The notes under the pieces are model-generated. The model was not told where the DNA came from, ran no database searches, and worked only from the letters and a program-made list of their open reading frames with translations. From Mobula hypostoma (taxonomy: Eukaryota): a stretch of 64,000 nucleotides of DNA. A program made the translations under genes and the position numbers. Below, piece after piece: positions 1,846 to 58,268 of the stretch. Each line of letters begins with the position of its first letter. Positions within the stretch are counted from its first letter, which is position 1. The stretch lies in assembly GCF_963921235.1 (NCBI RefSeq), contig NC_086097.1, positions 47,184,001 through 47,248,000 of the forward strand, in the 5' to 3' direction.

Positions 1846-2464
1846 AAGATGGCGGCGCAACGCAGCGCGCGGCCGTTCCGAATGATATCGTATCTGTGAA
1901 GTAGGATGCCTTGCACAATCCGGATTTGATGGAGGCAGACATGAAGAAGCACGGAGGAACATCTGGAGTAACTTCTGAAATGCCTGCTTCACTGCCGCTG
2001 CTACTGTGCAATCGAGAATCTCCGGAGGGGAAGGCCCTAAGACCTCAACCTTGCCTATTGCCTGTTGCCGGGGCCGGGGTCAAAACACTCAGCAGAGATG
2101 GTGCTCGGTGCTCGATGACGGAGAGCTGGTCAGAGGCTCGGAGTTGGGCTGTGGTTGGATGCTTCCGGGATGCTGCATCGGCAAGTTTGCGGCGCTGGAA
2201 GTTTACTGTCTGTGTGAGATGATGGGACTTTCGAGAGCCTTCAAGACTGTACCGTGCCCATGGTCTGTTCTTATGAAATTACTGTATTGCTTTGCACTGT
2301 TGTAACTATATGTTATAGTTATGTGGTTTTCATCAGTTTTTCAGTCTTGGTTTGTCATGTGTTTCTGTGATATCATTCTGGAGGAACATTGTATCATTTC
2401 TTAATGCATGCATTACTAAATGACAAAAGAGGACTGCGTGTCCTCATAATCTAATCTAATCTAA
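1846..2464 (+). mobile_element. Non-autonomous LINE-derived retroposon, about 620 bp, copy 1
   Basis: Starts AAGATGGCGG (YY1-like), has a CpG-rich 5' half and ends in (AATCT)n. It is colinear with a second copy at 14193-14851 on the minus strand. Confidence 0.75.
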
Positions 2465-3705
2465 AAAATGATAATCTTGAAATTATAGAAATCGTAGTTT
2501 GATACAAATTGTGAAGAAAGTATTGGATTCAATCTTCAAACCAATTATGAGCTTGCCAAAAGAAAGTCAATATTAATGGCACTATATCAGGAGGCATCTT
2601 ACGTAATATGGCAGCAGGAAGTTGCAGAGCTAAATTAAGTATGGAAGCAAGCTGTTATATGACTGTTGTCGGGAAATGTGAAGTCAAATCAGAAAATTTT
2701 CTGAATGCCAAGGCATAGGTTGCACAAACTTATATTTCTTTGAATTTAAACCTTTGTGTTAAATCTAGTTGAGACAGAAAAGACTTCAGATGCTGGAGTA
2801 CAAAGCAAAAAAAAACAAACTGTTAGAAAAGAGTTGCTCTGCCTTCAGAGGTGGTGCCTGACCTACTTAGATCTAGTGGAGTTGTTCAAAAATAGAAAGA
2901 TTCTTTTAGGCTATCAATGTGTTCTTGCATCCATCTACAAGACCTAGATTCTACCACTAGTTAGCACAATGGTATCAATTTTACTTTGTGATAGCAGGAT
3001 TTGTAACTTCTTGCTCGCGTAAGATATCTATAATGGGACTTTGTTTTAAAATTAGCATCAGACCACTGACATAAGTGTTTTTTCATGCAAAGGAGAGTAG
3101 AAATATGGGACATTTCTGTTAAAGGGCTGTGAATGCTAGGCCATTTACAGTATGAACAAGACCAATGTAACTCTCGGGTAAATACTTAAAAGGGTTTGGA
3201 CAAGGCAGGGTAATGGAGTTAAAGTCACCCATGGTTTAATTGTGAGATGGAAAACCCCTTCAAGAAAGAGGTTGGAAAGGTTTCTGGCTGGATTGGAAAT
3301 CATTTCATACAAGGGACACTAACACATAATATAAATCAAGGTTGATGTAAATCTCTTGGAGTAATTTAAATGCCCCATTGTAGCTTATGATAAATCTTCA
3401 GGCTTTTAATCTAATTGACCTGTGCGACTGTGCATGGTTACGAGCATGGAATACTGGTTATGATTCATTAAACTTCACAACTCCAGGTGACAGATTAAGT
3501 TGTCCATGGAATCATATGAGGCATTGGATTGAGAATAGCTCCTATCTCTCGGTTTTCTTAATACTAAATGGAGCATTTGTATGCAAGGCATTACTTTAAA
3601 CTTCCTTCCTTGAAGATTCATTATTCTTCGTGGATTTAAAGCTGGAGAAGAGGAAGACGGTAATGATAAGGGGGAGTAGGGAGGCAGAACAATCTTTCTG
3701 ATGGA

Positions 3706-4151
3706 CTATAATAATGTGGGTGAAACTGGGAGTTGTGGTAAGGCAAGGGTTAAAAACACCGGCCAGGCGAGGATGACTGCGTGGTGTGTATCAATCAGAT
3801 AAGCAAGACTGGAGCCACCCTAGTTTACTACAGACGAGATAGGCAAGGGTGACTGCCTACTTATTCAACTAGAAGAATGGGGCCTCTGAAGTGAGAACTT
3901 TTCTAGAAAGATCCTTGAAGATGTAGTTTCCCTTTAGACGAGAGGGAATACCAAAGAGAAATGAGGTGGGAATAATGGAAGAATGTGAATCACACATAAC
4001 AACTAAGTGACAATTGCTTTACCAACTTCAAAGTGTATTCGGTTGTCTGCTTGTAGTCTCTATTGACCTTTAATACTTCAATTGTGAATGAGATTGATCT
4101 TGCAAGTAAAGGAACTCATACATAGTTTACCAGTTGGTCAATATCATAACA
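3706..4151 (+). mobile_element. Possible old solo LTR
   Basis: Compositionally distinct block ending ...AGTAAAGG...CATAACA. No convincing TSD found. Confidence 0.25.
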
Positions 4152-4394
4152 GATAGGCCAATTCTGTATAAAAATGTCAGTTTTCTGTCCAGGCTTCAGA
4201 ACAAGTGTGGTGACGGGCCACATTGTTCTCGTTGTGCACAAGTAAAATGAACTGTGATTCAGTCATCAGTTTGCCTGTGTTCTGGGTCCAGTTACTTTAT
4301 TATCGGTGATGACAAGACTGCATAGAAATATGATGCCACTCTATGATTCACCATCCTTGATCTTATCTGCTGTATCACGCCTTGAAAGGGAGAA

Positions 4395-4534
4395 TAAACT
4401 GTGTGAATCCCTGCAGCATCTGGTGACCCTGTGATCTCTGTCTTAGAAGCTGACCATCTTTTAAGAGGGTGAACCCTCACAAGACATCAGGCCCTGATGG
4501 TGTACCTGGTATGACTCTGAAAACCTGTGCCAAC
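4395..4534 (+). mobile_element. Rex1/Babar-like LINE RT fragment, left part (host of the LTR insertion)
   Basis: Encodes ..KTSGPDGVPGMTLKTCAN, which continues after the LTR element at 8322 as Q..FKDIFNLSL. Confidence 0.75.
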
Positions 4535-4732
4535 TGTTGTGTATGTGGCCGGGTTACACAACAAAGCTATAAATAAAAACGCTGGAGATGGGAGCTAAGT
4601 TAACCGGGTTCTTGACTGACTGAAACCGAACTGAACACACACGCACAGATCAATATGCGCCTAATAGTGCATGCAATGATGTGTCCCTACAACATAAAGT
4701 AGTCCCATATGATACAGTAGCTATACAGTACA
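4535..4732 (-). repeat. 3' LTR (198 bp) of the cargo-carrying element
   Basis: TGTACTGTATAG...CACAACA on minus, preceded by PPT AAAAGGGGGAGGAG. Aligns with 8141-8316. Confidence 0.9.
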
Positions 4733-5777
4733 CTCCTCCCCTTTTATTTTAATAGTGTATCAACTTTTTTTTACTGGGGCACTACGCTAAACAAATATGT
4801 TTACCCTTTACATACAAATGCCTACCAATTGTTTACTTAGTAATTTAATAATATCAAATTACAAATTAATGTAATAATATCAAATTATAACAAGCCTTTT
4901 TTTTACTTTTGGTCTAAGACCCATTTATAACTCAAGTCCCTGGGGGGACTCTGCCCACTATGCTGTACTTCTCTAGATGATTATGTACCAGCGGTAACAG
5001 AAGAAATCAGTGAAGCTGTAGCAAAATTAGTCATATTGCTCAAGAGGCGTGATGCATTTTTCGTAGCTTTGGTTTCCATGGTCTGCTTCAAAGATGACTT
5101 GCCGCCAATAAAAGAAATGGTTGGTGATCTGCCGTCTCTGCTAGTTATTCAAAAGTCGGGGCAATCCAAAGACTCACAGAAAGAACAGTACTTTACCAGT
5201 AATCTTTCACCGTTTGATGAAGCAGTTGATCGAAATCCTGTTGTTCATTCCGCTGTTCTTAAACTGCAGTTAAAGTACAGTGTTGCTGATATTAAGGATG
5301 ACCTGCAGTGCTATCTGTCTGGCCCAAGAGGGAGAGTTCCTTCAGATGCACATTCAGCCACAAGTGTGAAAATACAACAATAGAAACCTATTGTTTTATT
5401 TGTTTTCCTGTCATGGGATGGCTGTGTAAATATGCTGTACTGTATCTGCTCTATGATATGCTGTGCTGCTTTGTAAAATAAGAATAATAATAAAAATTTG
5501 AATTATAAAAACAATAGAAACCTTACAGTTTGTTGCCAGAATTCGCCTCTGTTTTGATGCTGTTTCCCAACCTCTTTGTGCAGAACGAGACACATTGCTG
5601 AGGATTCAAAATATGTACGTGCAAAAGAAACTTCTCTGCAAAGGGTTAAGTGTATGATTCTTAATGGAGGAAATGATTAGTTTGAGATTTACCGTGTGGG
5701 AAAGCTGTTCTGTTTGAATGGAATTGATTTTGTCCAAGAGCTTTTAAGGGATGACCAATTTTCATCGATCTTTTCCA

Positions 5778-6625
5778 AGGAAATTGTTCAGGAGAAGATG
5801 GAGATGCTGGTCTTTTCGGAGATTTATACTAATTGAGAGTTTACAGATCTTCCATTATCTGTTCATCTGTTAACAAGTAATTTAACTGCGCAGGTACAGG
5901 TTTTTGTCTTTTGTCTGTAATTGGAACAGGGTCATTAGGAATCCTCCTTAGTTTCCTTGTTATTATTGGCTTTACCTCCATAGATTCTCCTGTGAGTTCC
6001 ATTGTTAGCATCTCATTCTCAATCATCTTTTTCTTTTTTTCTAACTCAATGTTTTTAATCTTCAAATTCCTTCACTGCTGCTTTCTTCTCTTTAATATAA
6101 TTCCTTTCTCCTTGTTCTGTCTCCAGTTGCAGAAAAAACTCTATTTCATATTCTTTCCTTGTATTGTTGATCTAGTTTCTTCATCCTTTTCTGATACTCC
6201 TGCAAAGTGCCTTCCTGTTACTACCCTTTTGCCTATCACCTGTCCAGCTCTTGGCTCTATCCCTCCCCCTCCTGTCTTCTCCTATCATTTTGCATCTCCC
6301 CCTCCCCCTCCCACTTTCAAATCCCTTACTCACTCTTCCTTCAGTTAGTCCTGACGAAGGGTCTCGGCCTGAAACGTCGACTGTACCTCTTCCTACAGAT
6401 GCTGCCTGGCCTGCTGCGTTCACCAACAACTTTGATGTGTGTTTCCTGTTACTACTGTAGCTGTCTTTTGAGAGATGTCAATTTCTTCTGGTACATCTGC
6501 TCTTTTACTTCCAGGTAGTCTTCATCATCCTGCTTATTAGCAATATCTGTCTCCCTGTCGACGCTGTCCAGTTCCTCGTCGTCATTGTAATAGTCGACAA
6601 TGGGTGAGAGGAGAGCTGTGGACAT
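5778..6625 (-). pseudogene. SUDS3: Processed (intronless) pseudogene of Sin3 HDAC complex subunit SDS3
   Basis: Reads [158 protein letters not shown]. This matches vertebrate SUDS3 as recalled. It has several stops and deletions, one TE insertion, no introns and lacks the C-terminus. Confidence 0.93.
6225..6442 (+). mobile_element. Penelope-like element 3' end fragment inserted in the SUDS3 retrocopy
   Basis: Same sequence as the 3' end of the Penelope element at about 41135-41355. 13-bp TSD TTCCTGTTACTAC at 6212-6224 and 6443-6455. Confidence 0.9.
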
Positions 6626-6649
6626 CTTCCCCACCGAGCTGCCCTCCTT

Positions 6650-7811
6650 CGTTGATACATCTAGTGCCTTGATGGTGTGCCAATCCAACTGGATTTTCCT
6701 GAGCCATTCACATTCCAGCAATGGTGGTCCTCCATTTTTCAGTACCTAGAGGCTCAGTTGCTATGTTTTATCTCCGTAGGTCACTGTCACTTCAATTTTG
6801 CCTTTGGGATGCACTTTCTGTCCTGTGTAGGTTTTTAGTAGAAGTTTCGTTCGTATCAGAGGTATGTGCAAAAACAGTTGTTTGTAGTCGTGTACAGAGA
6901 TCACTGTTAAAGCTGAGCCTGTGTCCAGCTCCATTTTCAGTCTCACACCTGCCACTTGTGGAGTGATCCATATTACTCTTCGATCATCTGTCTCCTTCAT
7001 GCTGTGAAGTTGCAGACAAGACAATTCACTTTTGTCAGATTCATTTTCATCAGAACTGCCTTCTTTCATTTTGTGCACATTGTTGTATTTTCCTTTCTGG
7101 GGTTTCTTGTTTCTCTGTATTTTGACCTTTTTCTGCTGTTTACTAGCTTTGCATACTCTGCCAATGTGGCCCTGTCTGCCACAGTTTCTGCATTCTTTAT
7201 CTTTAAACCAACAGTCATCTGGGTCATGTGACCTATTTCTTTCCTTCATTTCTGTTCAGTGACATATTTGTAGCATATTCCAGAGATTTTTGTTGTATCC
7301 CGGAAGCACCTCGTGTGGCTGTTTCCGTTGATATTGCAATGTTCAGCGCCTTCTCTAATGTAAGGTACCTTTCACACAGAAGCTTCTTCTGTGTGGTTTC
7401 ACAGTGCATGCCACACACTAGCCTGTCCCTCAATGCATCCGATAGACCCGTTCCAAATTGACAATGTTCTGATAATTTGCGCAATTCAGCACAATATTCA
7501 GAAATGCTTTCATTTTTGCTCTGATTCCGATTGTGAAATTTAAATCTTTCAGCAATGCCCAGCGGTTTGGGGTTTAAATGCTGTTGCAGAGTGTCTACTA
7601 TTTGCTTGAACGTTTTGTCAGCTGGCTTTTCAGGGGTTAACAAGCTCCGTAGCAGGCCGTATGTTTTTGCTTCCATAATACTAAGTAAGACGCTGATTTT
7701 CTTTTCATCATTAACATTGTTAGCATCACAATATAACTCCACTTTTTCAATGTAAATTACCCGGTCTTCAATGCTACTATTAACTGCTGTAATGGTTCCA
7801 ATCATCATCAT
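6650..7811 (-). pseudogene. Retrotransposon gag-protease (frameshifted, with stops)
   Basis: ORFs 7233-7811 and 6761-7249. Gag motifs ERFKFH.R.Q...ESISEY.AELR.L..HC.FG..L.DALRDRLVCG, zinc knuckle CRNCGRQGHIGRVC, aspartic protease LDTGSA, and protease end GGPPLL..EWL..I.LDW. Confidence 0.9.
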
Positions 7812-7924
7812 CTTTGTTACGTTAATTTAGCCCTGTTCTCCCTTTTTTTTGATTCACGTGACCTTTTTGCTACCGCCACAAGCGCACTCCATCTAGATGT
7901 TTGTGTCGCTCCTTTTTATCTCCC

Positions 7925-8125
7925 TTCTGGGGCAGGCAGACCCTCAGTCCCTGGGGGTCAGCGCCGGCTGTGGTCTCGGCTGGACATGCTGTGGCTCCGA
8001 CTGTGTCCCTTGGTCTCCCGACGTTCCCGACCCTGACTGTGCTCCCGCTTCCTTTCGGACTCGCGGCCTCGCTCTGCTTCCTTCTCCCGCTCCTTGGCTC
8101 GTTCCTTGTGCTCTTCCTCTGAGTG
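7925..8125 (-). pseudogene. ACIN1: Captured 3' fragment of an Acinus-like mRNA (RS/RD-rich C-terminus, stop codon, start of 3'UTR)
   Basis: 8122 to 7958 reads SEEEHKERAKEREKEAERGRESERKREHSQGRERRETKGHSRSHSMSSRDHSRR*. This resembles the recalled ACIN1 end (..KEREKEAERER...KRREHSRER...[28 protein letters not shown]). The sequence is low complexity, so the call is less certain. Confidence 0.7.
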
Positions 8126-8140
8126 TCGTTATCAGTTAAA

Positions 8141-8316
8141 CTGGAGACGGGAGCTAAGTTAACAGGGTTCTTTACTGACTGAAACCGAACTGAACACAGA
8201 TATACAGATCAATAAGCATCTAGTAGCACATGCTCAATACGTGCCTAATAGCACATGCACCGACATGTCCCTATAACATAAAGTAGTTCCATATTATACA
8301 GTAGCTATACAGCACA
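8141..8316 (-). repeat. 5' LTR of the cargo-carrying element, truncated at its 3' (U5) end
   Basis: Aligns with 4582-4732 with about 19 substitutions in about 150 bp (hand count) plus a ~25-bp internal duplication. It lacks the last ~47 bp present in the other LTR. Confidence 0.88.
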
Positions 8317-8665
8317 CCAACCAATTTGAGGAGCGTTCAAGGACATCTTCAATCTCTCTCTGCTGTAGTCGGAGTTTCCCACCTACTTCGAAAGGGCGAC
8401 TATCATACCAGTACTAAAGAAGAGCGGCTTGAGATGTCTCAATGACTATCACTCAGTGACACTCACATCTGCTGTGAGGAAGTGCTCTGAGAGATTGGTC
8501 ATGGCTAGAATCATATCCTGCCTAAGCAAAGACCTGGACCTGTTGCAATTTGCCCATCACCACGATCGGTTTGTAGTGGATGCAATCTCACTGGCTCTCT
8601 CTACTTGGCCTTGGATCACCTGGACCATAGCAATGCCCACATTAGCCTGCTGTTTATTGATTTCA
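8317..8665 (+). mobile_element. Rex1/Babar-like LINE RT fragment, right part
   Basis: FKDIFNLSL..S..PT.F....IIPV.KK...CLNDY..V.LTS...KC.ERLV....LD.LQFA is a typical Rex1/Babar RT N-terminal region. Confidence 0.8.
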
Positions 8666-10610
8666 ACACTTCATATTGTAAGATGTTGAAGAGATTGAGA
8701 GATTGCAATCCAATTCACATTAGCATGCTATCTGTTTTGAGAAAATGCAATTGCAAACTAAGGATTTGAAAAACTAGGACTGAAAAGCAAAAGTGACAAA
8801 TGCTGGAAATCTGAAACAAAAACATGAATCGTAGGGATGCTCAATAGTGGCTCGGCATCTGTGAAGGGAGAAGATCTGGCCTTGAAGGTCAGTTCCTGAA
8901 ATGTTAACTCTGACATTATTTCTCTCTCTGCAGGTAGTGCAGCACAGTAACGTACAGTGATGTGGTGCTGCTAGCAGAGCTGCTGCCTCACAACTTCACC
9001 AACACAAGTGCAATCCTGAGCCTTAGCATGAATTTTGCCCTCTCTGTGTGACGGCATGGGTTTTCCCCAAGGAGTTCAATTTCCAACCACATCCCCAAAA
9101 CAAGTTAGTAGGTTTGGAGGTGTAAACAGGAATATGGAGCAAATAAAATGAGTTTCATGTAAGTCGGCGGTTCAAGGCTCACTGAGTCTGTGCTGACCAA
9201 AAGAGTCTGTTTCCAAGCTGTATGACTGGATGGCCACTTGACCTGCTGAGGATCCTTAATATTTTCATATCTAATTTGGAAAGTGGGGATGCTTTCTGTA
9301 GACACTAGGTAATTTGAGCAGTTTAAAATTAAGCAATAAAACAAAATGCAATGAGGCAGACAATTCATCATGATTGCAGGATCTTAAGCAAGGTGATAAC
9401 GGGTAAAGGTTAAATGCAATGTAAGTGGAAAAGTACTGTAGATAAGAATCTTATTTTTGTACAGAGTTTCTGGCTGAAATGGAGATGATGTCAGCACTTG
9501 AGAACAAGCTGAGCTCTTCAATGAAAAGGAAGTAAAAATATCTGCGAATAGAGTGGGCAAACATGATCATAATTATTAATCATATTTGGTTAAACATTAA
9601 TATGGACAGTTTGGATAAATCACCATTTTTATGATTTTCTATGCCCGAAGAGACAGAAGAACGGGCTGCCTTTAGCTTTGGAGTCCTGGGGCACACAGTT
9701 CCTGGAGGTGTACCAGAAAACAATGGGAACATCAGATGCAGTCTCTAAGGATTGCCTCTAAAGATTCGTGACAGCTGACAGGTGTGGATCTCAAATCGAC
9801 AACATCATATGCAGCAACATCCTAAAAGTGCTTCCTGTGTCTGGCAGGCATTAATGAAACCTTTATTGGAATCTGTGATAAACTCCCACATGCCACCTGT
9901 TTAAATAAAATACTGACAGAGGCCATGTTGACAACAGAGACTGGTTTAGGAAGTGTGTTTTACTTTAAATTACTCAGTGTTGTGGATATGCAGGCTGGTT
10001 TTGCCGGGTTTTCGAGATCTGATCACCGCCCACTGACAATGAAATATACAGATCCCAGTGAAATAGCTTGCACTGGCTATGGAGACTTTGCATTATTCTA
10101 AAGCTTTATTGTGGCACAGAAAAGCCAAAACAAGCTCTAGTACTGACTCCTTCATTGTATCCTTTTCAAACTTTTGTACACATTTTGTTACAAAGGCTTC
10201 TGATAACCCTCACTACTCTAACCCTCTGTATGAAGCAGTAGTAAAGGAGATAGGAAAAAAGTGATTAATAACAACTTAATTATAACATTTCATTTTGTAA
10301 AGGTTAATTGGACTCGAGGTCCTTTTGTGTTGTAACTCTTCTGCTTTTGTTTCTTCAGATTGGACTCTGACTGACAGCTAGTACTCTTTCATTTTATTCT
10401 ACATGACCAAAATATTGAAGTTTGGAAGGTCACAAAATACATCCTCCCATCATAACCTATGGTACTGTAACATCAGTTAACATCCTTAAATGGTAATATA
10501 CAAGTACATGATGGAACATTTCAATTCCAGAATACATATCCAAAAATATCCAAACACTCATTTTGAGGCACAAATTTTCATAAACATCAACTAAATTTAG
10601 GCCTATGTTG

Positions 10611-10952
10611 CAACACACATAAAAGTTGCTGGTGAACGCAGCAGGCCAGGCAGCATCTCTAGGAAGAGGTACAGTCGACGTTTCAGGCCGGGACCCTTCG
10701 TCAGGACTAACTGAAAGAAGAGATAGTAAGAGATTTGAAAGGGGGAGGGGGAGATCTGAAATGATAGGAGAAGACAGGAGGGGGAGGGATGGAGCTAAGA
10801 GCTGGAAAGTTGATTGGCAAAAGGGATATGAGAGGATCATGGATAAATAAATAAATATAATGGATGGAGTGTGAGGGGAGGTGGGGCATTAACGGAAGTT
10901 AGAGAAATCAATGTTCATGCCATCAGGTTGGAGGCTACCCAGACGGAATATA
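10611..10952 (-). mobile_element. Penelope-like element 3' fragment with hammerhead motif
   Basis: Matches the family at 40730-41398. 12-bp TSD AGGCCTATGTTG at 10599-10610 and 10953-10964. Confidence 0.85.
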
Positions 10953-13381: not shown

Positions 13382-13481
13382 AGTCCTGACGAAGGGTCTC
13401 GGCCCGAAACGTCGACTGTACCTCTTCCTGTAGATGCTGCCTGGCCTGCTGCATTCACCAGCAACTTTGATGTCTGTTGCT
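13382..13481 (+). ncRNA. Penelope-derived 3' end consisting almost only of a minimal type I hammerhead ribozyme motif
   Basis: AGTC-CTGACGA-AGGGTCTCGGCCC-GAAACGTC-GACT: conserved CUGANGA and GAAA boxes, helix II GGGU/GCCC, helix I AGUC/GACU, palindromic ACGU helix III. Confidence 0.75.
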
Positions 13482-21127: not shown

Positions 21128-22251
21128 TACAATATTAAAACAAAGAAGTCTTGAGTGATGTGGTGCAATTGCATGTGGCACCTTCCACTCCGGGACATTT
21201 TACAGATCCTGCTCTGACCTGTGAGTGGAAAGATTCCTGAGTTCTGAATGCTTTCAAAAGACTGATGGTTTGTGAAGAACAGTTTAATGCATGGCACTTG
21301 AGGAAATGTAATCCCTGAAATTATGCCCTAGAAAAATAAACCGGTGCATTCCACCTTTCCGCCATTTGGTGGGAACAATTTGATTTATATGTGATTACAG
21401 TATTTGTTTTAAGTCTTGGTAAAAAATCTCAGGGTTGTATATGGTGACATATATGTACTTTGATAATAAATTTCTTTGAACCTTTGAACCCTTTCTTTTG
21501 AGAAACATGTAATTACCCCTAAATTGTCTACTTCAATTATCCTTCCTGGGCAACTGATTTTGTAACAATCGGATCTTTAAGAGGAACCTCCTGTATTCCA
21601 CTTCTAACCTTCTAATCGGAGTGCTTGGTTCTTTGAATGATTCATCATTATAAGCAATTTAGCTGAACTAATTTGTCAGATTCTTTTGTAACTGGAAACT
21701 TTAGTTAGGTCACTTCAAAGTCTCCCTTCCAAATTGGACAAGCCTAATTTCCTCAATCTATCTTCACTAATTAAATTGCTGACACATGAAATTATTTTTA
21801 ATGCTTATGTTAACTGTAATAGCACTTTCCCCGTGAGGATAATTGACCAAAGACTTAAACTGGATAAGAAAACTGCAATAATCCATTTTGCTTTTTTTCT
21901 TTTAACTTTAGCTGCGCTGACTAGACTACTGTGGATATTTTATGATCATTACATATTAACGACACACACCTTGTTTTTAACACGTTGCTCTCTTCCTAAC
22001 TGCAACAAAGAAAACATTTAACAAATAGACTTTGTTAGTCCAATTAACACCCTCATCAAAAGTAAACAAATCCAATTGAAGTTAGAGATGAAATCAGACG
22101 CACATCAGGTTTGACAGGGTTTTATCATGCCATTACTTTCTACAAGCTGAAACTTAACATCGTGAACAGCTGTGATGCTCCACGCCCAAATGAGCTCACC
22201 ACTTGTTATGCATGCTTTGAAAAGGAGAAAATAAAACTACATTTGTAAGAA

Positions 22252-23015
22252 TCGCCGCAGCATCTGGTGACCCTGTCATCTCTGCCTTGGAGGCCGATGT
22301 CAGAAGGTGAACCCTCTCAAGGCATGCAGCCCTGACAGGGCATTAAAACTCTCACTGCTGCAGTCAGAAGTTCCTAGCTACTTCAAAAGGATGACAACCA
22401 TACCAGTCTCCAAGAAGACTAGCCCAGTTGCACTCACATCTGTGATGAGGTGCTTTCAGAGGTAGGTCATGGCCAGAGAGATTATGGACTTCGGGAAGGG
22501 GACGTCGAGGGAACACATACCAGTCATCATGAAGGGATCGGGATCAGCATCAACAGTGGAAAGGGTGAGCAGTTTCAAGTTCCTGGGTGTCAGCATCTCC
22601 AAGGATCTATCCTGGGCCCAACATAGTGATGCAATTACAAAAAAGGCATGACAGCAACTATATTTCATTAGGATTTTGAGAAGACTTTGTTATGTCACCA
22701 AAAGCTCTCACAAATTTCTACAGATGTACCATGGAGAGCATTCTAACGGGCTGCATCGAGGAGCCACTGCACAGGATCGGAAAAAGCTGCAGAAAGTTGC
22801 AAACTCAGTCAGCGCCATCATGAGCACCGGCCTCCCCAGCGTTGACGACATCTTCAAAAGCGATGCCTCAGATGATGCAGCATCCATCATTTAGGGCCCC
22901 CATCACCAAGGACACGGCTCTTCTCATTCCTACCACCAAGGAGGAGGTGCAGGAGCCCGAAGACACACACTCAACATTTTAGGAACAGCTTCTTCCTCCT
23001 CCACCTTCAGATTTC
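22252..23015 (+). mobile_element. Rex1/Babar-like LINE, fragmented
   Basis: VERVSSFKFLGV.IS.DLSW motif in ORF 22469-22651, plus remnants homologous to 4400-4500 and 16600-16970. Confidence 0.75.
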
Positions 23016-23019
23016 TGAG

Positions 23020-23583
23020 GGGGGAACAGAAATGGGGAATGGTGAAGGCCAAATACCGGAAGTTTGACAAATCAATGTTCATGCCATCAAGTTGGAGGCT
23101 ATAATTCAGATGGAATATAAGCTGTTGCTTCTTCAAACTGGGTGTGGCCTCATCGCAGCAATAGAGGAGGCCATGGACTGATTCCTGTTTCTTCCTTTCA
23201 TCTTAACTTCTTACCTGCCTATCACCACCCTCTGGTACTCCTCTTTACTTTTCTTCCATGGGGTCCTACCCTCTCCCATCTGATTCACCCTCCCCCAGCT
23301 CTTTATCTCTTTCACCAATCAACTTCCGAACTCTTTACTTCTCTTCCCACTCTCCCTCTCCTGGTTTCACCTATCACCCACCACCTTATACTCCTTCCTC
23401 CCCTTCCTTCCCCGTCTTCTTACTCTGTCTTCTCATCTTTTTTCCAGTCCTAGTGAAGGGCCTCTACCCGAAACGTCGACTGTTTACTCTTTTCCATAGA
23501 TGCCGTCTGGCCTGCTGAGTTCCTCCAGTATTTTGTGTGTGTTGCTTTGGATTTCCAGCATCTGCAGCTTTTCTCATGTTTGT
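23020..23583. mobile_element. Older Penelope-like fragments (inverted 5' piece plus plus-strand 3' end)
   Basis: 23060-23180 matches the GIY-YIG C-terminal region in reverse. 23190-23583 matches the pyrimidine-rich 3' end, with a decayed hammerhead at 23447-23482. Confidence 0.7.
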
Positions 23584-39142: not shown

Positions 39143-41398
39143 AATGCTGGTGAACGCAGCAGGCCAGGCAGCATCTCTAGGAAGAGGTACAGTTGATGTT
39201 TCGGGCCAAGACCCCTCGTCAGGACTAACTGAAAGAAGAGCTAGTAAGAGATTTGAAAGTGGGAGGGGAAGGGGGAGATCTGAAATGATAGGGGAAGCTG
39301 TGATAGCGAGTCTGAGTCAAAATGTGGTAGAAAAGTTGAAGAGTCGAAGAAATTACAGATGGGGAGCAGTGAGAGATGGTTTCACTGAACTCCCGTTGAA
39401 GAAAACATTTAAACTTCTTCAGTGTAGGCATCACCGGAAGAGGCTTCGCAGTAGTGAATTTAAAAACGCAAACACGGGGAATTCTGCAGATGCTGGAAAT
39501 TCAAGCAACACACATCGAAGTTCATCTCTAGGAAGAGGTACAGTCGACGTTTCCTTCGAGATCCTTCGTCAGGACTAACTGAAAGAAGAGATAGTAAGAG
39601 ATTTGAAAGTGGGAGGGGGAGGCTACCCAGACGGAATATAAGGTGTTGTTCCTCCAACCTGAGTGTGGCTTCATCTTTACAGTAGAGGAGGCCGTGGATA
39701 GACATATCAGAATGGGAATGGGACGTGGAATTAAAATGTGTGGCCACTGGAAGATCCTGCTTTCTCTGGCAGACAGAGCGTAGGTGTTCAGCGAAACGAT
39801 CTCCCAGTCTGCGTCGGGTCTCGCCAATATATAGAAGGCCACATCGGGAGCACTGGACGCAGTACATCACCCCAGCCGACTCACAGGTGAAGTGTCGCCT
39901 CACCTGGAAGGACTGTCTGGGGCCCTGAATGGTAGTGAGGGAGGAAGTGTAAGGGCATGTGTAACACTTGTTCATCTTACAAGGATAAGTGCCAGGAGGG
40001 AGATCAGCGAGGAGGGAGATGGGGGGAACGAATGGACAAGGGAGTCGCGTAGGGAGCGATCCCTGTGGAAAGCAGAGAGAGTGGGTAGGGAAAGATGTGC
40101 TTAGTGGTGGGATCCCGTTGGAGGTGGTGGAAGTTACGGAGAATAATATGTTGGACCTGGAAGCTGGTGGGGTGGTAGATGAGGACAAGGGGAACCCTAT
40201 TTCTAGTGGGGTGGTGGGAGGATGGAATGAGAGGAGATGTGTGTGAAATGGGGGAGATGCGTTTGAGAGCAGAGTGGATGGTGGAGGAAGGGAACCCCTT
40301 TCTTTAAAAAAGAAGGACATCTCCTTCATCCTGGAATGAAAAGCCTCATCCTGAGAGCAGATGCAGCAGAGACAGAGGAATTGTGAGAAGGGGATGGCAT
40401 TTTTGCAAGAGACAGGGTGAGAAGAGGAATAGTCCAGATAGCTCTGAGAGTCAGTAGGCTTATAGTAGACATCAGTAGATAAGCTGTCTCCAGAGACAGA
40501 GACAGAAAGATCTAGAAAGGGGAGGGAGGTGTCAGAAATGGACCAGGTAAACTTGAGGGCAGGGTGAAAGTTGGAGGCAAAGTTGATGAAGTCAATGAGC
40601 TCAGCATGCGTGCAGGAAGCAGCGCCAATGCAGTCGTCGATGTAGCGAAGGAAAAGCGGGTAACAGATACCAGAATAGGTTTGGAACATAGATTGTTCCA
40701 CAAAGCCAACAAAAAGGCAGGCATAGCCAGTAGATTGTTCCGCTGAACACCTTCGCTCTGTCCGCCAGAGAAAGCAGGATCTTCCAGTGGCCACACATTT
40801 TAATTCCACATCCCATTCCCATTCTGATATGTCTATCCATGGCCTCCTCTACTGTAAAGATGAAGCCACACTCAGTTTGGAGGAACAACACCTTATATTC
40901 TGTCTGGGTAGCCTTCAACCTGATGGCATGAACATTGACTTCTCAAACTTCCGCTAATGCCCCACCTCCCCCTCGTACCCCATCCGGTATTTATTTATAT
41001 ACACACATTCCTTTTCTCTCTCTCTCCTTTTTCTCCCTCTATCCCCCTCACTATACCCCTTGCCCATCCTCTGGTTTCTCCCCCCTCCCCCTTTTCTTTC
41101 TCCCTGGGCCTCCTGTCCCATGATCCTCTCATATCCCTTTTGCCAATCAACTGTCCAGCTCTTGGCTCCATCCCTCCCCCTCCTGTCTTCTCCTATCATT
41201 TTGGATCTCCCCCTCCCCCTCCCACTTTCAAATCTCTTACTAGCTCTTCTTTCAGTTAGTCCTGACGAAGGGTTTCGGCCCGAAACGTCGACTGTACCTC
41301 TTCCTAGAGATGCTGTCTGGCCTGCTGCGTTCACCAGCAACTTTGATGTGCGTTGCTTGAAATTCCAGCATCTGCAGATTTCTTCATGTTCACGTTTT
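39143..41398. mobile_element. Penelope-like retroelement complex: RT plus GIY-YIG endonuclease on minus strand, with inverted and partial-tandem terminal repeats
   Basis: RT motif FLRYIDD and GIY-YIG motif GVMYCVQC..C.LLYIGET.R.L..RF.EH in ORF 39460-40809. Inversion point near 40730, with a plus-strand 3' end to 41398. A tandem 5' ORF start lies at 39298-39460. Confidence 0.92.
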
Positions 41399-57914: not shown

Positions 57915-58268
57915 GCAACACACATAAAAGTTACTGGTGAACTCAGCAGGCCAGGCAGCATCTCTAGGAAGAGGTACAGTCGATGTTTCAGGCCGAGACC
58001 CTTCGTCAGGACTAACTGAAAGAAGAGCTAGTAAGAGATTTGAAAGTGGGAGGGGGAGGGGGAGATGAGATGACAGGAGGGGGAGGGATAGAGGTAAGAG
58101 CTGTCTTCTCCTATCATTTTGAATCTCCCCCTCCCACTTTCAAATCTCTTACTATCTTTTCTTTCAGTTAGTCCTGACAAAGGGTCTCGGCCCAAAACAT
58201 CGACTATACCTCTTCCTATAGATGCTGCCTGGCCTGCTGCGTTCACCAGCAATTTTTATGTGTGTTGC
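57915..58268. mobile_element. Inverted pair of young Penelope-like 3' ends
   Basis: 57915-58099 (minus) and 58100-58268 (plus) are near reverse complements, and each has a hammerhead-like box. Confidence 0.85.

What the first reader, a model, noticed from the sequence alone, without database searches (positions are those of the whole stretch)
4535..8316. LTR retrotransposon whose pol is replaced by a spliced host mRNA (SUDS3): retrovirus-style gene capture
Seen in sequence: on minus the order is LTR, gag, protease, intronless SUDS3 coding sequence, ~1 kb of unrelated sequence, PPT, LTR. The whole unit is flanked by a clean CCAAC TSD inside a Rex1 LINE whose reading frame resumes across it. 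RT, RNaseH and integrase are absent. The SUDS3 copy is co-oriented and has no polyA tail or TSD of its own. Established knowledge: LTR elements and retroviruses can template-switch onto co-packaged mRNA, as in oncogene transduction, and SDS3 is part of the Sin3-HDAC co-repressor. Inference: the chimera formed during reverse transcription and integrated as one unit, so this is LTR-mediated rather than LINE-mediated retroposition. A retroelement carrying a truncated subunit of a silencing complex also raises a speculative decoy or anti-silencing idea.
Basis: partly seen in the sequence, partly recalled or inferred. Interest (0 to 1): 0.88.

Follow-up and report, generated by a model that had tools for sequence, protein, structure and literature searches.

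The report
Gypsy retrotransposon family carrying captured SUDS3
This is one dead copy of a ray retrotransposon family, present at several hundred places, whose enzyme genes were long ago replaced by a spliced copy of the host gene SUDS3.

Summary
Window 4535-8316 (minus strand) is an LTR element with a 5-bp duplication of its target site (TSD, CCAAC), inserted in a LINE-like repeat. It carries gag, protease, an intronless SUDS3 piece and a polypurine tract (PPT), but no RT, RNase H or integrase.

It is not a capture at this locus. It is a decayed member of a non-autonomous Ty3/gypsy family: the SUDS3 segment has at least 409 candidate places in the same 3.5-Gb genome. An autonomous partner with about 90% identical LTRs is present.

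Comparing that partner, the intron-containing parent SUDS3 gene and 28 other copies points to one old capture. About 2.67 kb of pol was replaced by SUDS3 mRNA, from 12 nt before the ATG to 112 nt after the stop. The cargo is in frame with gag-protease. Microhomology is 7 nt at the 5' junction and 5 nt at the 3' junction. There is no poly(A).

The "~1 kb unrelated" stretch is an antisense RNF213 fragment that later entered the SUDS3 cargo. A deletion then removed the SUDS3 C-terminus.

Variant counts show constraint on gag-protease but none detectable on SUDS3, so the decoy idea is unsupported. The mechanism, LTR-mediated retroposition, is already known. The copy number and the full-length in-frame cargo are unusual.

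The parts
8317..8321 (.). Target-site duplication, CCAAC on the + strand (upstream side of the minus-strand element)
   Evidence: sequence. Paralogs L045 and L046 carry CCAAC once.
8141..8316 (-). 5' LTR. It carries a 25-bp tandem duplication. Its last 47 bp and the following ~47-bp primer-binding region are deleted, about 94 bp in all.
   Evidence: 86% identity to the 3' LTR. (comparison with L012, L025 and the autonomous copy L043).
7827..8140 (-). Leader between LTR and gag. It contains an arginine/serine-rich ORF and is native to the element, not captured.
   Evidence: window 8140-6638 aligns as one block, 86.6% identical, to autonomous copy positions 529-2036.
7233..7826 (-). gag (capsid-like) reading frame, 197 codons, decayed
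   Evidence: (weak DUF7083, Ty3_capsid and Retrotrans_gag hits). (sister-copy gag-protease against Ty3/gypsy polyproteins, E 3e-143).
6761..7255 (-). Zinc knuckle (CX2CX4HX4C) and aspartic protease (LDTGSA) frame, shifted relative to gag in this copy
   Evidence: In L012, gag through protease is one 461-codon open frame.
6638..6760 (-). End of protease and linker up to the 5' switch point. The microhomology GGGCAGC lies at 6644-6638.
6444..6637 (-). SUDS3 cDNA, first part: 12 nt of 5'UTR, ATG at 6625-6623, codons 1 to about 81, in frame with protease. A private 57-bp deletion lies at 6557/6556.
   Evidence: One search shows that other copies have the 57 bp.
6224..6443 (-). 220-bp SINE-like repeat inserted into the SUDS3 cargo, private to this copy. 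It is flanked by a ~12-bp duplication, TAGTAACAGGAA.
   Evidence: absent from the other 15 type-C copies. (8 more copies in the window). (no Rfam match).
5779..6222 (-). SUDS3 cDNA, second part, to about codon 234. It has several stops and frameshifts and lacks 24 bp (KENLIAEL) that lie inside a parent exon.
4947..5778 (+). Fragment of RNF213-like coding sequence, antisense to the element. It includes a 120-bp insertion at 5390-5509, shared only with L021. It is truncated at 4947 by the deletion that also removed the SUDS3 C-terminus and 3'UTR.
   Evidence: ORF 4931-5383(+) against RNF213 residues 4071-4195, E 1e-26. (RING part in L034, E 7e-32)..
4733..4946 (-). Native 3' internal end of the element, with the polypurine tract at about 4733-4745
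   Evidence: window 4888-4535 aligns to autonomous 4787-5144...
4535..4732 (-). 3' LTR, 198 bp, complete
   Evidence: (39 other scored places, 89-93% identical).
4530..4534 (.). Target-site duplication, CCAAC
4200..4529 (+). Upstream part of the interrupted LINE-like repeat (peptide ...VNPHKTSGPDGVPGMTLKTCAN)
   Evidence: (3704 candidate places)..
8322..8720 (+). Downstream part of the same LINE-like repeat, with a reverse-transcriptase-like frame
   Evidence: (1491 candidates).. (nearest Atlas clusters carry RVT_1, score 0.97).

Best explanation
Window 4535-8316 is a dead copy of a high-copy, non-autonomous Ty3/gypsy LTR retrotransposon family of a ray genome.

The founder arose once. During reverse transcription of an autonomous element, synthesis switched at a 5-nt microhomology (CAGAC) from the end of the integrase region onto a SUDS3 mRNA. 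It copied the mRNA from 112 nt past the stop codon up to 12 nt before the ATG. It then switched back at a 7-nt microhomology (GGGCAGC) just after the protease. The switching itself is inferred from the junctions.

This replaced about 2.67 kb (RT, RNase H, integrase) with about 1.05 kb of spliced SUDS3, in frame with gag-protease. The chimera kept its LTRs, primer-binding region and PPT, and it was multiplied in trans by the autonomous family. That dependence is also inferred.

A later master copy gained about 1 kb of antisense RNF213 sequence inside SUDS3. A further deletion removed the rest of that insert, the SUDS3 C-terminus and its 3'UTR. This produced the subfamily found in the window, which went on transposing.

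After insertion into a LINE, this copy lost the end of its 5' LTR and its primer-binding region. It also took up a SINE-like repeat and accumulated stops and frameshifts.
For: Family size. The SUDS3 segment has 409 candidate places; 39 of the 40 scored are non-self and 92-94% identical. The SUDS3 C-terminal 86 aa has 384 candidates; all 150 scored are contiguous at 85-97%. The LTR has 1494 candidates.

Architecture. 28 fetched copies share one architecture.

Autonomous partner. L043 has LTRs about 90% identical to the window's and a gag-PR-RT-RH-IN frame covering residues 1-1311 of P0123.

Breakpoints. Window 8140-6638 aligns to autonomous 529-2036. L025 4224-4700 aligns to autonomous 4705-5151.

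Parent gene. It lies on contig C78 with 11 coding exons, and the window piece aligns exon by exon.

Junctions. The junction sequences and microhomologies are shown. The rough chance of that much microhomology at a random junction is 5e-4 and 6e-3.

One capture event:
- The same 5' junction is present in 27 of 28 copies.
- The same 3' junction is present in 13 of 13 copies that keep the SUDS3 end.
- An 8-codon gap at KENLIAEL is present in 29 of 29 copies.

Open frames. L012 has a 461-codon frame and L024 a 501-codon frame.

Independent insertions. In 9 of the 13 copies with both outer ends located, there is a 5-bp TSD with at most 1 mismatch, and each TSD is different.

Age. LTR-to-LTR distance is 0.047-0.151 in 21 copies, median 0.091, and 0.10 in the autonomous copy.
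Against: - Template switching is inferred from junction anatomy only. A DNA-level microhomology-mediated join would leave the same scars.
- Copy numbers are first-look candidate counts, not a census.
- How the antisense RNF213 piece entered is unexplained. It is flanked by a 24-bp duplication of SUDS3 sequence and has no poly(A).
- Whether the RNF213 piece is spliced was not tested.
- No data on transcription were obtained.
Confidence: 0.82

Rival explanations
1. Fresh capture at this locus: the chimera formed in the reverse-transcription round that produced this insertion. This is what the first reader implied.
For: The element has an intact TSD and integrated as one unit.
Against: The same junctions and the same 24-bp gap occur in all other copies examined. 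There are hundreds of copies 92-94% identical. The window copy belongs to a derived subfamily that carries two later rearrangements.
Confidence: 0.01
2. A LINE-made processed SUDS3 pseudogene landed inside an LTR element. A deletion then removed pol, and the composite multiplied.
For: LINE-like repeats are abundant in this genome. A 2026 preprint attributes vertebrate retrocopies mainly to non-LTR elements (passages seen).
Against: There is no poly(A). Only 112 nt of 3'UTR and 12 nt of 5'UTR are present. No duplication flanks the cargo. pol is replaced precisely, with microhomology at both ends and the same orientation and frame.
Confidence: 0.04
3. A DNA-level event joined element DNA to SUDS3 cDNA or to an existing retrocopy, for example microhomology-mediated end joining or replication template switching. 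Retrotransposition followed.
For: Junction microhomologies of 5-7 nt also fit DNA repair. The later RNF213 insert is antisense and flanked by a 24-bp duplication, which looks more like a DNA-level or filler event.
Against: The cargo is spliced and co-oriented, and both ends fall inside the mRNA. This is the pattern described for LTR-mediated retroposition: 25 of 29 junctions with microsimilarity, median 6 bp (PMC5131818, passages seen).
Confidence: 0.1
4. The cargo is functional. A Gag-protease-SDS3 fusion, or the truncated SDS3 with its dimerisation and Sin3-binding parts, interferes with Sin3-HDAC silencing and helped the family spread.
For: The fusion is in frame. The family makes up a sizeable share of its lineage: 409 candidates against 1164 for the autonomous RT segment. 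The part retained in the window subfamily covers the regions that match the PDB SDS3 chains 4zqa and 2n2h.
Against: Subfamily-level variants in SUDS3 have a non-synonymous:synonymous ratio of 49:20 against 356:112 for private variants (odds ratio 0.77, 95% CI 0.44-1.35, p 0.37). The same test on gag-protease detects constraint: 78:55 against 579:196 (odds ratio 0.48, p 2e-4). The cargo was broken by an insertion and a deletion, and the broken form went on transposing. In-frame fusion has a 1 in 3 chance.
Confidence: 0.06

Closest known systems
LTR-mediated retrocopies of metazoans (Tan et al. 2016, Genome Res, PMC5131818; abstract and passages seen)
   Same: A spliced host mRNA piece replaces part of the internal ORFs of an LTR element. 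It is flanked by the discontinuous element, with microsimilarity at the switch points (median 6 bp there; 7 and 5 nt here). The mRNA ends are truncated, and there is no poly(A) or duplication. Some chimeras are re-mobilised as non-autonomous elements.
   Different: Those cases are single or few-copy loci in fly, mosquito, zebrafish, chicken and mammals. Here a complete coding sequence, fused in frame to gag-protease, reached at least several hundred copies in a cartilaginous fish and then diversified into subfamilies.
Maize Bs1 retroelement (as summarised in PMC5131818 and PMC13317346; passages seen)
   Same: An LTR retroelement carries host gene pieces from more than one gene. [quoted passage not shown]
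   Different: Bs1 has 1-5 copies and carries partial exonic fragments of three genes. Here there is one full coding sequence plus a later antisense fragment of a second gene, at hundreds of copies, in an animal.
Replication-defective transducing retroviruses with Gag-onc fusion proteins (recalled from general knowledge; no call)
   Same: pol is replaced by a spliced host gene, read in frame with gag. Spread depends on a helper that supplies RT and integrase.
   Different: There is no env, no evidence of infectivity, and no evidence that the cargo gives any advantage. This is a genomic Ty3/gypsy element, not a retrovirus.
Non-autonomous LTR retrotransposons that keep gag but lack pol (general class; recalled)
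   Same: LTRs, primer-binding region, PPT and gag are retained. The enzymes are supplied in trans by an autonomous partner with the same LTRs.
   Different: The internal filler here is an identifiable host cDNA rather than anonymous or deleted sequence.

Membership tests
LTR retrotransposon, Ty3/gypsy type, non-autonomous derivative | Two direct LTRs ending TG...CA, flanked by a short target-site duplication | tested here: met
   A 5-bp TSD with at most 1 mismatch was also found in 9 of 13 copies examined.
LTR retrotransposon, Ty3/gypsy type, non-autonomous derivative | Primer-binding site next to the 5' LTR | tested here: not met
   It is deleted in the window copy. Sister copies and the autonomous copy have ...ACA AAT TGGCGATGAGG... 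at that position. Complementarity to a tRNA was not tested.
LTR retrotransposon, Ty3/gypsy type, non-autonomous derivative | Polypurine tract next to the 3' LTR | tested here: met
   AAAAGGGGAGGAG lies directly upstream of the TG of the 3' LTR.
LTR retrotransposon, Ty3/gypsy type, non-autonomous derivative | gag-protease homologous to Ty3/gypsy polyproteins, whose domain order is PR-RT-RH-IN | tested here: met
   (E 3e-143, 58% identity). (order in P0123: PR 294-384, RT 509-649, RNase H 712-843, integrase 955-1115).
LTR retrotransposon, Ty3/gypsy type, non-autonomous derivative | An autonomous partner with matching LTRs in the same genome; RT, RH and IN absent from the derivative | tested here: met
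   (L043). (its RT segment has 1164 candidates). All scored autonomous copies carry stops.
LTR-mediated retrocopy (criteria of PMC5131818) | Intronless copy of an intron-containing parent gene | tested here: met
   The parent on C78 has 11 coding exons. The window piece aligns to 8 exon blocks without introns. In 8 of 10 full-cargo copies, aa 1-327 aligns in one stretch.
LTR-mediated retrocopy (criteria of PMC5131818) | The retrocopy replaces an internal segment of the element, with microsimilarity at both switch points | tested here: met
   Autonomous positions 2037-4704 are replaced. Microhomology is GGGCAGC (7 nt) and CAGAC (5 nt).
LTR-mediated retrocopy (criteria of PMC5131818) | No poly(A) tail and no duplication bounding the retrocopy | tested here: met
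   The 3'UTR stops after 112 nt.
LINE-made processed pseudogene | 3' poly(A) and a flanking duplication of variable length | tested here: not met
   The only duplication, 24 bp, bounds the later RNF213 insert, not SUDS3.
Transducing retrovirus | Retroviral genome with env, and infectious spread | not tested
   The autonomous copy (4862 bp between its outer LTR ends) is filled by one gag-pol frame up to about 170 bp before the 3' LTR, which leaves little room for env. No env search was run.
Rex1 LINE (the insertion target) | Reverse transcriptase and 3' end of the Rex1 clade | not tested
   Only general reverse-transcriptase likeness and high copy number were found. Pfam found nothing in the 106-aa frame.

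The most novel reading that the evidence does not exclude
The family is a vertebrate 'transducing' retrotransposon whose cargo mattered. A Gag-protease-SDS3 fusion, keeping the SDS3 dimerisation and Sin3-binding parts, would blunt Sin3-HDAC silencing of the element. The later acquisition of antisense RNF213, an antiviral ligase gene, would put hundreds of LTR-driven antisense copies of a host defence gene in the genome. Together these would be a two-step counter-defence carried by a selfish element.
Probability: 0.06. Interest if true: 0.88.

Novelty: new member of a known kind. Interest (0 to 1): 0.58.

Why it matters
1. It gives a concrete cause for a census oddity. A 2026 preprint lists SUDS3 among the five genes with most retrocopies in cartilaginous fishes and discusses retrocopies in terms of non-LTR elements and selective retention (passages seen). 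In this genome the SUDS3 copies ride in an LTR element, so they count transposon copies, not repeated retroposition of the gene.

2. Gene models named 'SDS3-like' are element reading frames. By eye, P0002 is identical over its last roughly 300 residues to the open frame of L024.

3. LTR-mediated retroposition, known from a handful of low-copy loci in animals, can yield a family of hundreds of copies that carries a whole host coding sequence.

4. The contrast between constrained gag-protease and unconstrained cargo suggests the non-autonomous element needed its own Gag.

Tried and rejected
- **Pfam on the window's own ORFs.** Only sub-threshold hits were found, and nothing for the SUDS3 pieces. 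Better-preserved sister copies were needed (Sds3 E 3.5e-8, above the cut-off).
- **A third captured gene in the leader.** The arginine/serine-rich ORF at 7958-8128 was rejected as a capture because the stretch is also in the autonomous copy.
- **The 3' region as an independent repeat family.** One search showed hits without LTR. These places are copies of the intermediate subfamily, with the SUDS3 C-terminus following.
- **The missing KENLIAEL as alternative splicing.** Rejected, because it lies inside one parent exon.
- **Empty site from two top-40 lists.** The lists shared no locus. Fetching two paralogs solved it. A paralog within the window (22217-22477) lacks 54 bp around the site.
- **Rfam.** No match in 4300-8600.
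- **PDB searches of the outer parts of the RNF213 insert.** No significant match.
- **Earlier notes of this scan.** Nothing was shown.
- **Sequencing runs.** No RNA holder is listed and all runs laid were contigs of unrecorded type. Nothing can be said on expression.
- **Last protein search.** Only P0002 combines element-derived sequence with SDS3, and its coverage of the query region was 52%. No listed protein covered more than 62% of that region, so the family's range across species stays open.
- One search's distance for the window's LTR pair (0.20) is inflated, because the script extended the truncated 5' LTR into non-LTR sequence. The two 86% blocks are the better figure. One search's automatic tally misfired (threshold too strict). 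The per-copy rows show 19-20 of 28 codons aligned in 29 of 29 copies.
- **Copy-versus-parent dN/dS (0.36) and 'fixed' differences (5:12).** These are not used as evidence of constraint, because half of that path is the parent gene's own lineage.
Full report
**What is at the locus.** On the minus strand, window 4535-8316 is bounded by GTTGG (CCAAC on +) at 8321-8317 and 4534-4530.
- The 3' LTR is 4535-4732 and the 5' LTR is 8141-8316. They are 86% identical in two ungapped blocks, offset by a 25-bp tandem duplication in the 5' LTR.
- Between the LTRs lie a leader, a gag frame (7826-7233), a zinc-knuckle plus protease frame (7255-6761) and SUDS3-like sequence from 6637 to 5779. The SUDS3 part is split by a 220-bp repeat.
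- About 830 bp follow whose only long frame runs on the opposite strand. Then comes a purine tract, then the 3' LTR.
- The flanks belong to a high-copy repeat, with 3704 and 1491 candidate places. It has a reverse-transcriptase-like frame.
- Two uninterrupted paralogs read GTGCCAAC|CAA with CCAAC once. The 5-bp duplication and the insertion into a LINE-like element are therefore confirmed.
- The name Rex1 was not tested.

**Identity of the coding parts.** The window's own frames are too decayed for Pfam's cut-offs.
- Sister copy L012 has a 461-codon open frame running from gag through zinc knuckle and protease into SUDS3. L024 has a 501-codon frame from protease to the SUDS3 stop.
- The gag-protease part matches 1311-aa 'K02A2.6-like' or gypsy-integrase-like polyproteins at E 3e-143, 58% identity. 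Their domain order is PR-RT-RNase H-integrase.
- The window's 76-aa SUDS3 frame hits SDS3 proteins at E 4.5e-29, 87-88% identity, and PDB SDS3 chains. L024's frame passes Pfam's Sds3 cut-off.

**Not a single event but a family.** The window lies in a 3.48-Gb assembly.
- The LTR has 1494 first-look candidates; 39 scored non-self places are 89-93% identical.
- The SUDS3 segment 5778-6225 has 409 candidates; 39 scored are 92-94% identical.
- The SUDS3 C-terminal 86 residues are absent from the window copy. They have 384 candidates, and all 150 scored are contiguous at 85-97%.
- I fetched 28 other copies and mapped them onto the window element and onto SDS3 protein P0036.

The copies fall into three forms:
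- **Type A (10 loci):** LTR, leader, gag, protease, the whole SUDS3 coding sequence plus 112 nt of 3'UTR, a short 3' end, LTR.
- **Type B (3 loci):** type A with an insert of about 1 kb inside SUDS3 near codon 234. The insert is flanked by a 24-bp duplication of SUDS3 sequence.
- **Type C (15 loci and the window):** type B minus about 760 bp, namely the rest of the insert, the SUDS3 C-terminus and the 3'UTR.

Among the 13 copies where a simple pattern located both outer LTR ends (12 type C loci and the window), 9 have a 5-bp duplication with at most one mismatch. Each duplication is different. These are therefore separate integrations, including integrations of the truncated form.

**The parent gene.** A degenerate pattern for KENLIAEL found one place in the genome, on contig C78. 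These eight residues are present in bona fide SDS3 but absent from the element.
- Around that place P0036 aligns in separate blocks for residues 38-327. Exon 1 lies 27 kb further upstream. That makes 11 coding exons.
- The window's SUDS3 DNA aligns to eight of these blocks back to back.
- KENLIAEL lies inside one exon, so its absence is a deletion of the element lineage and not a splice variant. All 29 copies show an 8-codon gap there.

**The autonomous partner and the junctions.** A search with polyprotein P0123 found many decayed gag-pol copies.
- One of them (L043) has LTRs about 90% identical to the window's 3' LTR and a frame covering P0123 residues 1-1311.
- Window 8140-6638 aligns to its positions 529-2036. 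In type A copy L025, homology resumes at autonomous position 4705.
- Positions 2037-4704, roughly polyprotein residues 402-1290 with RT, RNase H and integrase, were therefore replaced by about 1.05 kb of SUDS3 mRNA.
- At the 5' junction the element reads ...AAGGAGGGCAGC|AAGG, the parent 5'UTR reads ...GGCGGGCAGC|TCGG, and the chimera reads ...AAGGAGGGCAGC|TCGG. This is 7 nt of shared GGGCAGC, followed by 12 nt of 5'UTR and the ATG, in frame.
- At the 3' junction the parent 3'UTR reads ...TTGACAGAC|TGAAG and the element reads ...GGGCAGAC|GTTACC, sharing CAGAC.
- There is no poly(A).
- A rough chance estimate for that much microhomology is 5e-4 and 6e-3.
- 27 of 28 copies align across the 5' junction; the exception, L017, has lost gag-protease. 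13 of 13 type A/B copies align across the 3' junction.
- This is one capture, and its anatomy is that described for LTR-mediated retroposition (PMC5131818). That the switches happened during reverse transcription is inference.

**The 'unrelated' kilobase.** The frame on the + strand (4931-5383) matches RNF213 residues 4071-4195 at E 1e-26. The part of the insert lost from the window encodes the RNF213 RING finger in L034, matching residues 4009-4128 at E 7e-32.
- Window 4947-5778 is therefore an antisense fragment of a second host gene. Only 4733-4946 is native element sequence.
- How it entered is not explained. It is antisense, has no poly(A) and has a 24-bp flanking duplication.
- Whether it is spliced could not be tested, because the RNF213 parent was not fetched.

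**Private damage to the window copy.**
- About 94 bp spanning the end of the 5' LTR and the primer-binding region are deleted between CCAG repeats.
- There is a 57-bp deletion in SUDS3 at 6557/6556.
- The SINE-like insertion at 6224-6443 has 8 further copies in the window.
- A 120-bp insertion at 5390-5509 is shared only with L021.
- The SUDS3 part contains five stop codons.

**Age.** LTR-to-LTR Kimura distances are 0.047-0.151 (median 0.091) in 21 copies and 0.10 in the autonomous copy.
- L017 (0.31, rearranged) is set aside, and 6 loci gave only one LTR.
- The window pair is about 14% different.
- Only 17 differences from the parent are shared by at least 70% of copies over about 966 nt. The burst therefore followed the capture fairly closely.
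- No substitution rate is known for this lineage, so absolute dates are not given. The family is old and no scored autonomous copy is free of stops over its full length.

**Does the cargo matter?** I used private variants (seen in 1-2 copies) as a neutral baseline. All ratios below are non-synonymous:synonymous.
- In SUDS3, private variants stand at 356:112. Subfamily-level variants stand at 49:20 (odds ratio 0.77, 95% CI 0.44-1.35, p 0.37).
- The same test on gag-protease gives 579:196 against 78:55 (odds ratio 0.48, CI 0.33-0.70, p 2e-4).
- The two intermediate classes differ only at p 0.09.
- Master copies were thus under constraint for gag-protease, while no constraint is detectable for SUDS3. 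Moderate constraint is not excluded, and recurrent CpG changes may blur the classes.
- The broken cargo of type C went on transposing.
- The decoy idea is therefore unsupported, though not excluded.

**Context.** The best SDS3 hits, and several proteins named 'SDS3-like', come from two Mobula species.
- By eye, P0002 is identical over its last roughly 300 residues to the L024 frame.
- P0001, from the other species, begins its match in the element linker upstream of the SUDS3 Met and also lacks KENLIAEL. The family therefore probably predates their split; this rests on one protein.
- Five literature searches found no description of a SUDS3-carrying retrotransposon. Only the 2026 preprint's listing of SUDS3 among top retrocopy parents in cartilaginous fishes came up. 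Its supplements are closed and may hold more.

**Verdict.** The locus itself is an ordinary dead copy. The interest lies in the family.

Noticed in passing
window 6224-6443; also 41135-41354, 10612-10825, 57917-58103, 58101-58266, 39145-39297, 13382-13478, 39523-39622, 23446-23543: A 220-bp SINE-like repeat has 9 copies in the 64-kb window. It reached by far the greatest contig depth in the runs laid. It has no Rfam match.
   Followed up: partly
LTRs of window (8141-8316 against 4535-4732) and of L009-L036: LTRs come in a short form (~199 bp) and a long form (~224 bp, with a 25-bp tandem duplication). All four 5'/3' combinations occur within single elements. This is unexpected if both LTRs are copied from one template. 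It suggests recurrent slippage or recombination.
   Followed up: no
gag-protease of 28 copies (reference frame L012:1130-2329): Subfamily-level variants in gag-protease show a deficit of non-synonymous changes (78:55 against 579:196, p 2e-4). This suggests the non-autonomous element depended on its own Gag and protease.
   Followed up: partly
L024 (G000:C52:75512500-75520500), frame 3226-4728 minus: A public gene model named 'SDS3-like' (P0002) is built from this element copy. Its N-terminus comes from the element leader and its body from the captured SUDS3. Other 'SDS3-like' models sit on contigs whose lengths match C36, C22 and C21.
   Followed up: partly
window 5390-5509: A 120-bp insertion lies inside the antisense RNF213 piece, flanked by a ~13-bp direct repeat (GGTTTCTATTGTT). 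Among the fetched copies it is shared only with L021.
   Followed up: no
window 22217-22477: A second copy of the same LINE-like repeat lies here. It lacks 54 bp exactly around the place where the LTR element sits in the first copy.
   Followed up: yes
G000:C78:8380641-8439640 (loci L037-L042, L044): The parent SUDS3 gene spans about 59 kb with a first intron of about 27 kb. One 148-bp intron is read through in protein P0036, which gives the extra residues GIDCVFLI.
   Followed up: partly
bioRxiv 10.64898/2026.06.26.734816 (passage seen): Besides SUDS3, the other top retrocopy parents listed for cartilaginous fishes are MIPOL1, SDF2L1, SLU7 and ZNF276. They might likewise be transposon cargo.
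   Followed up: no
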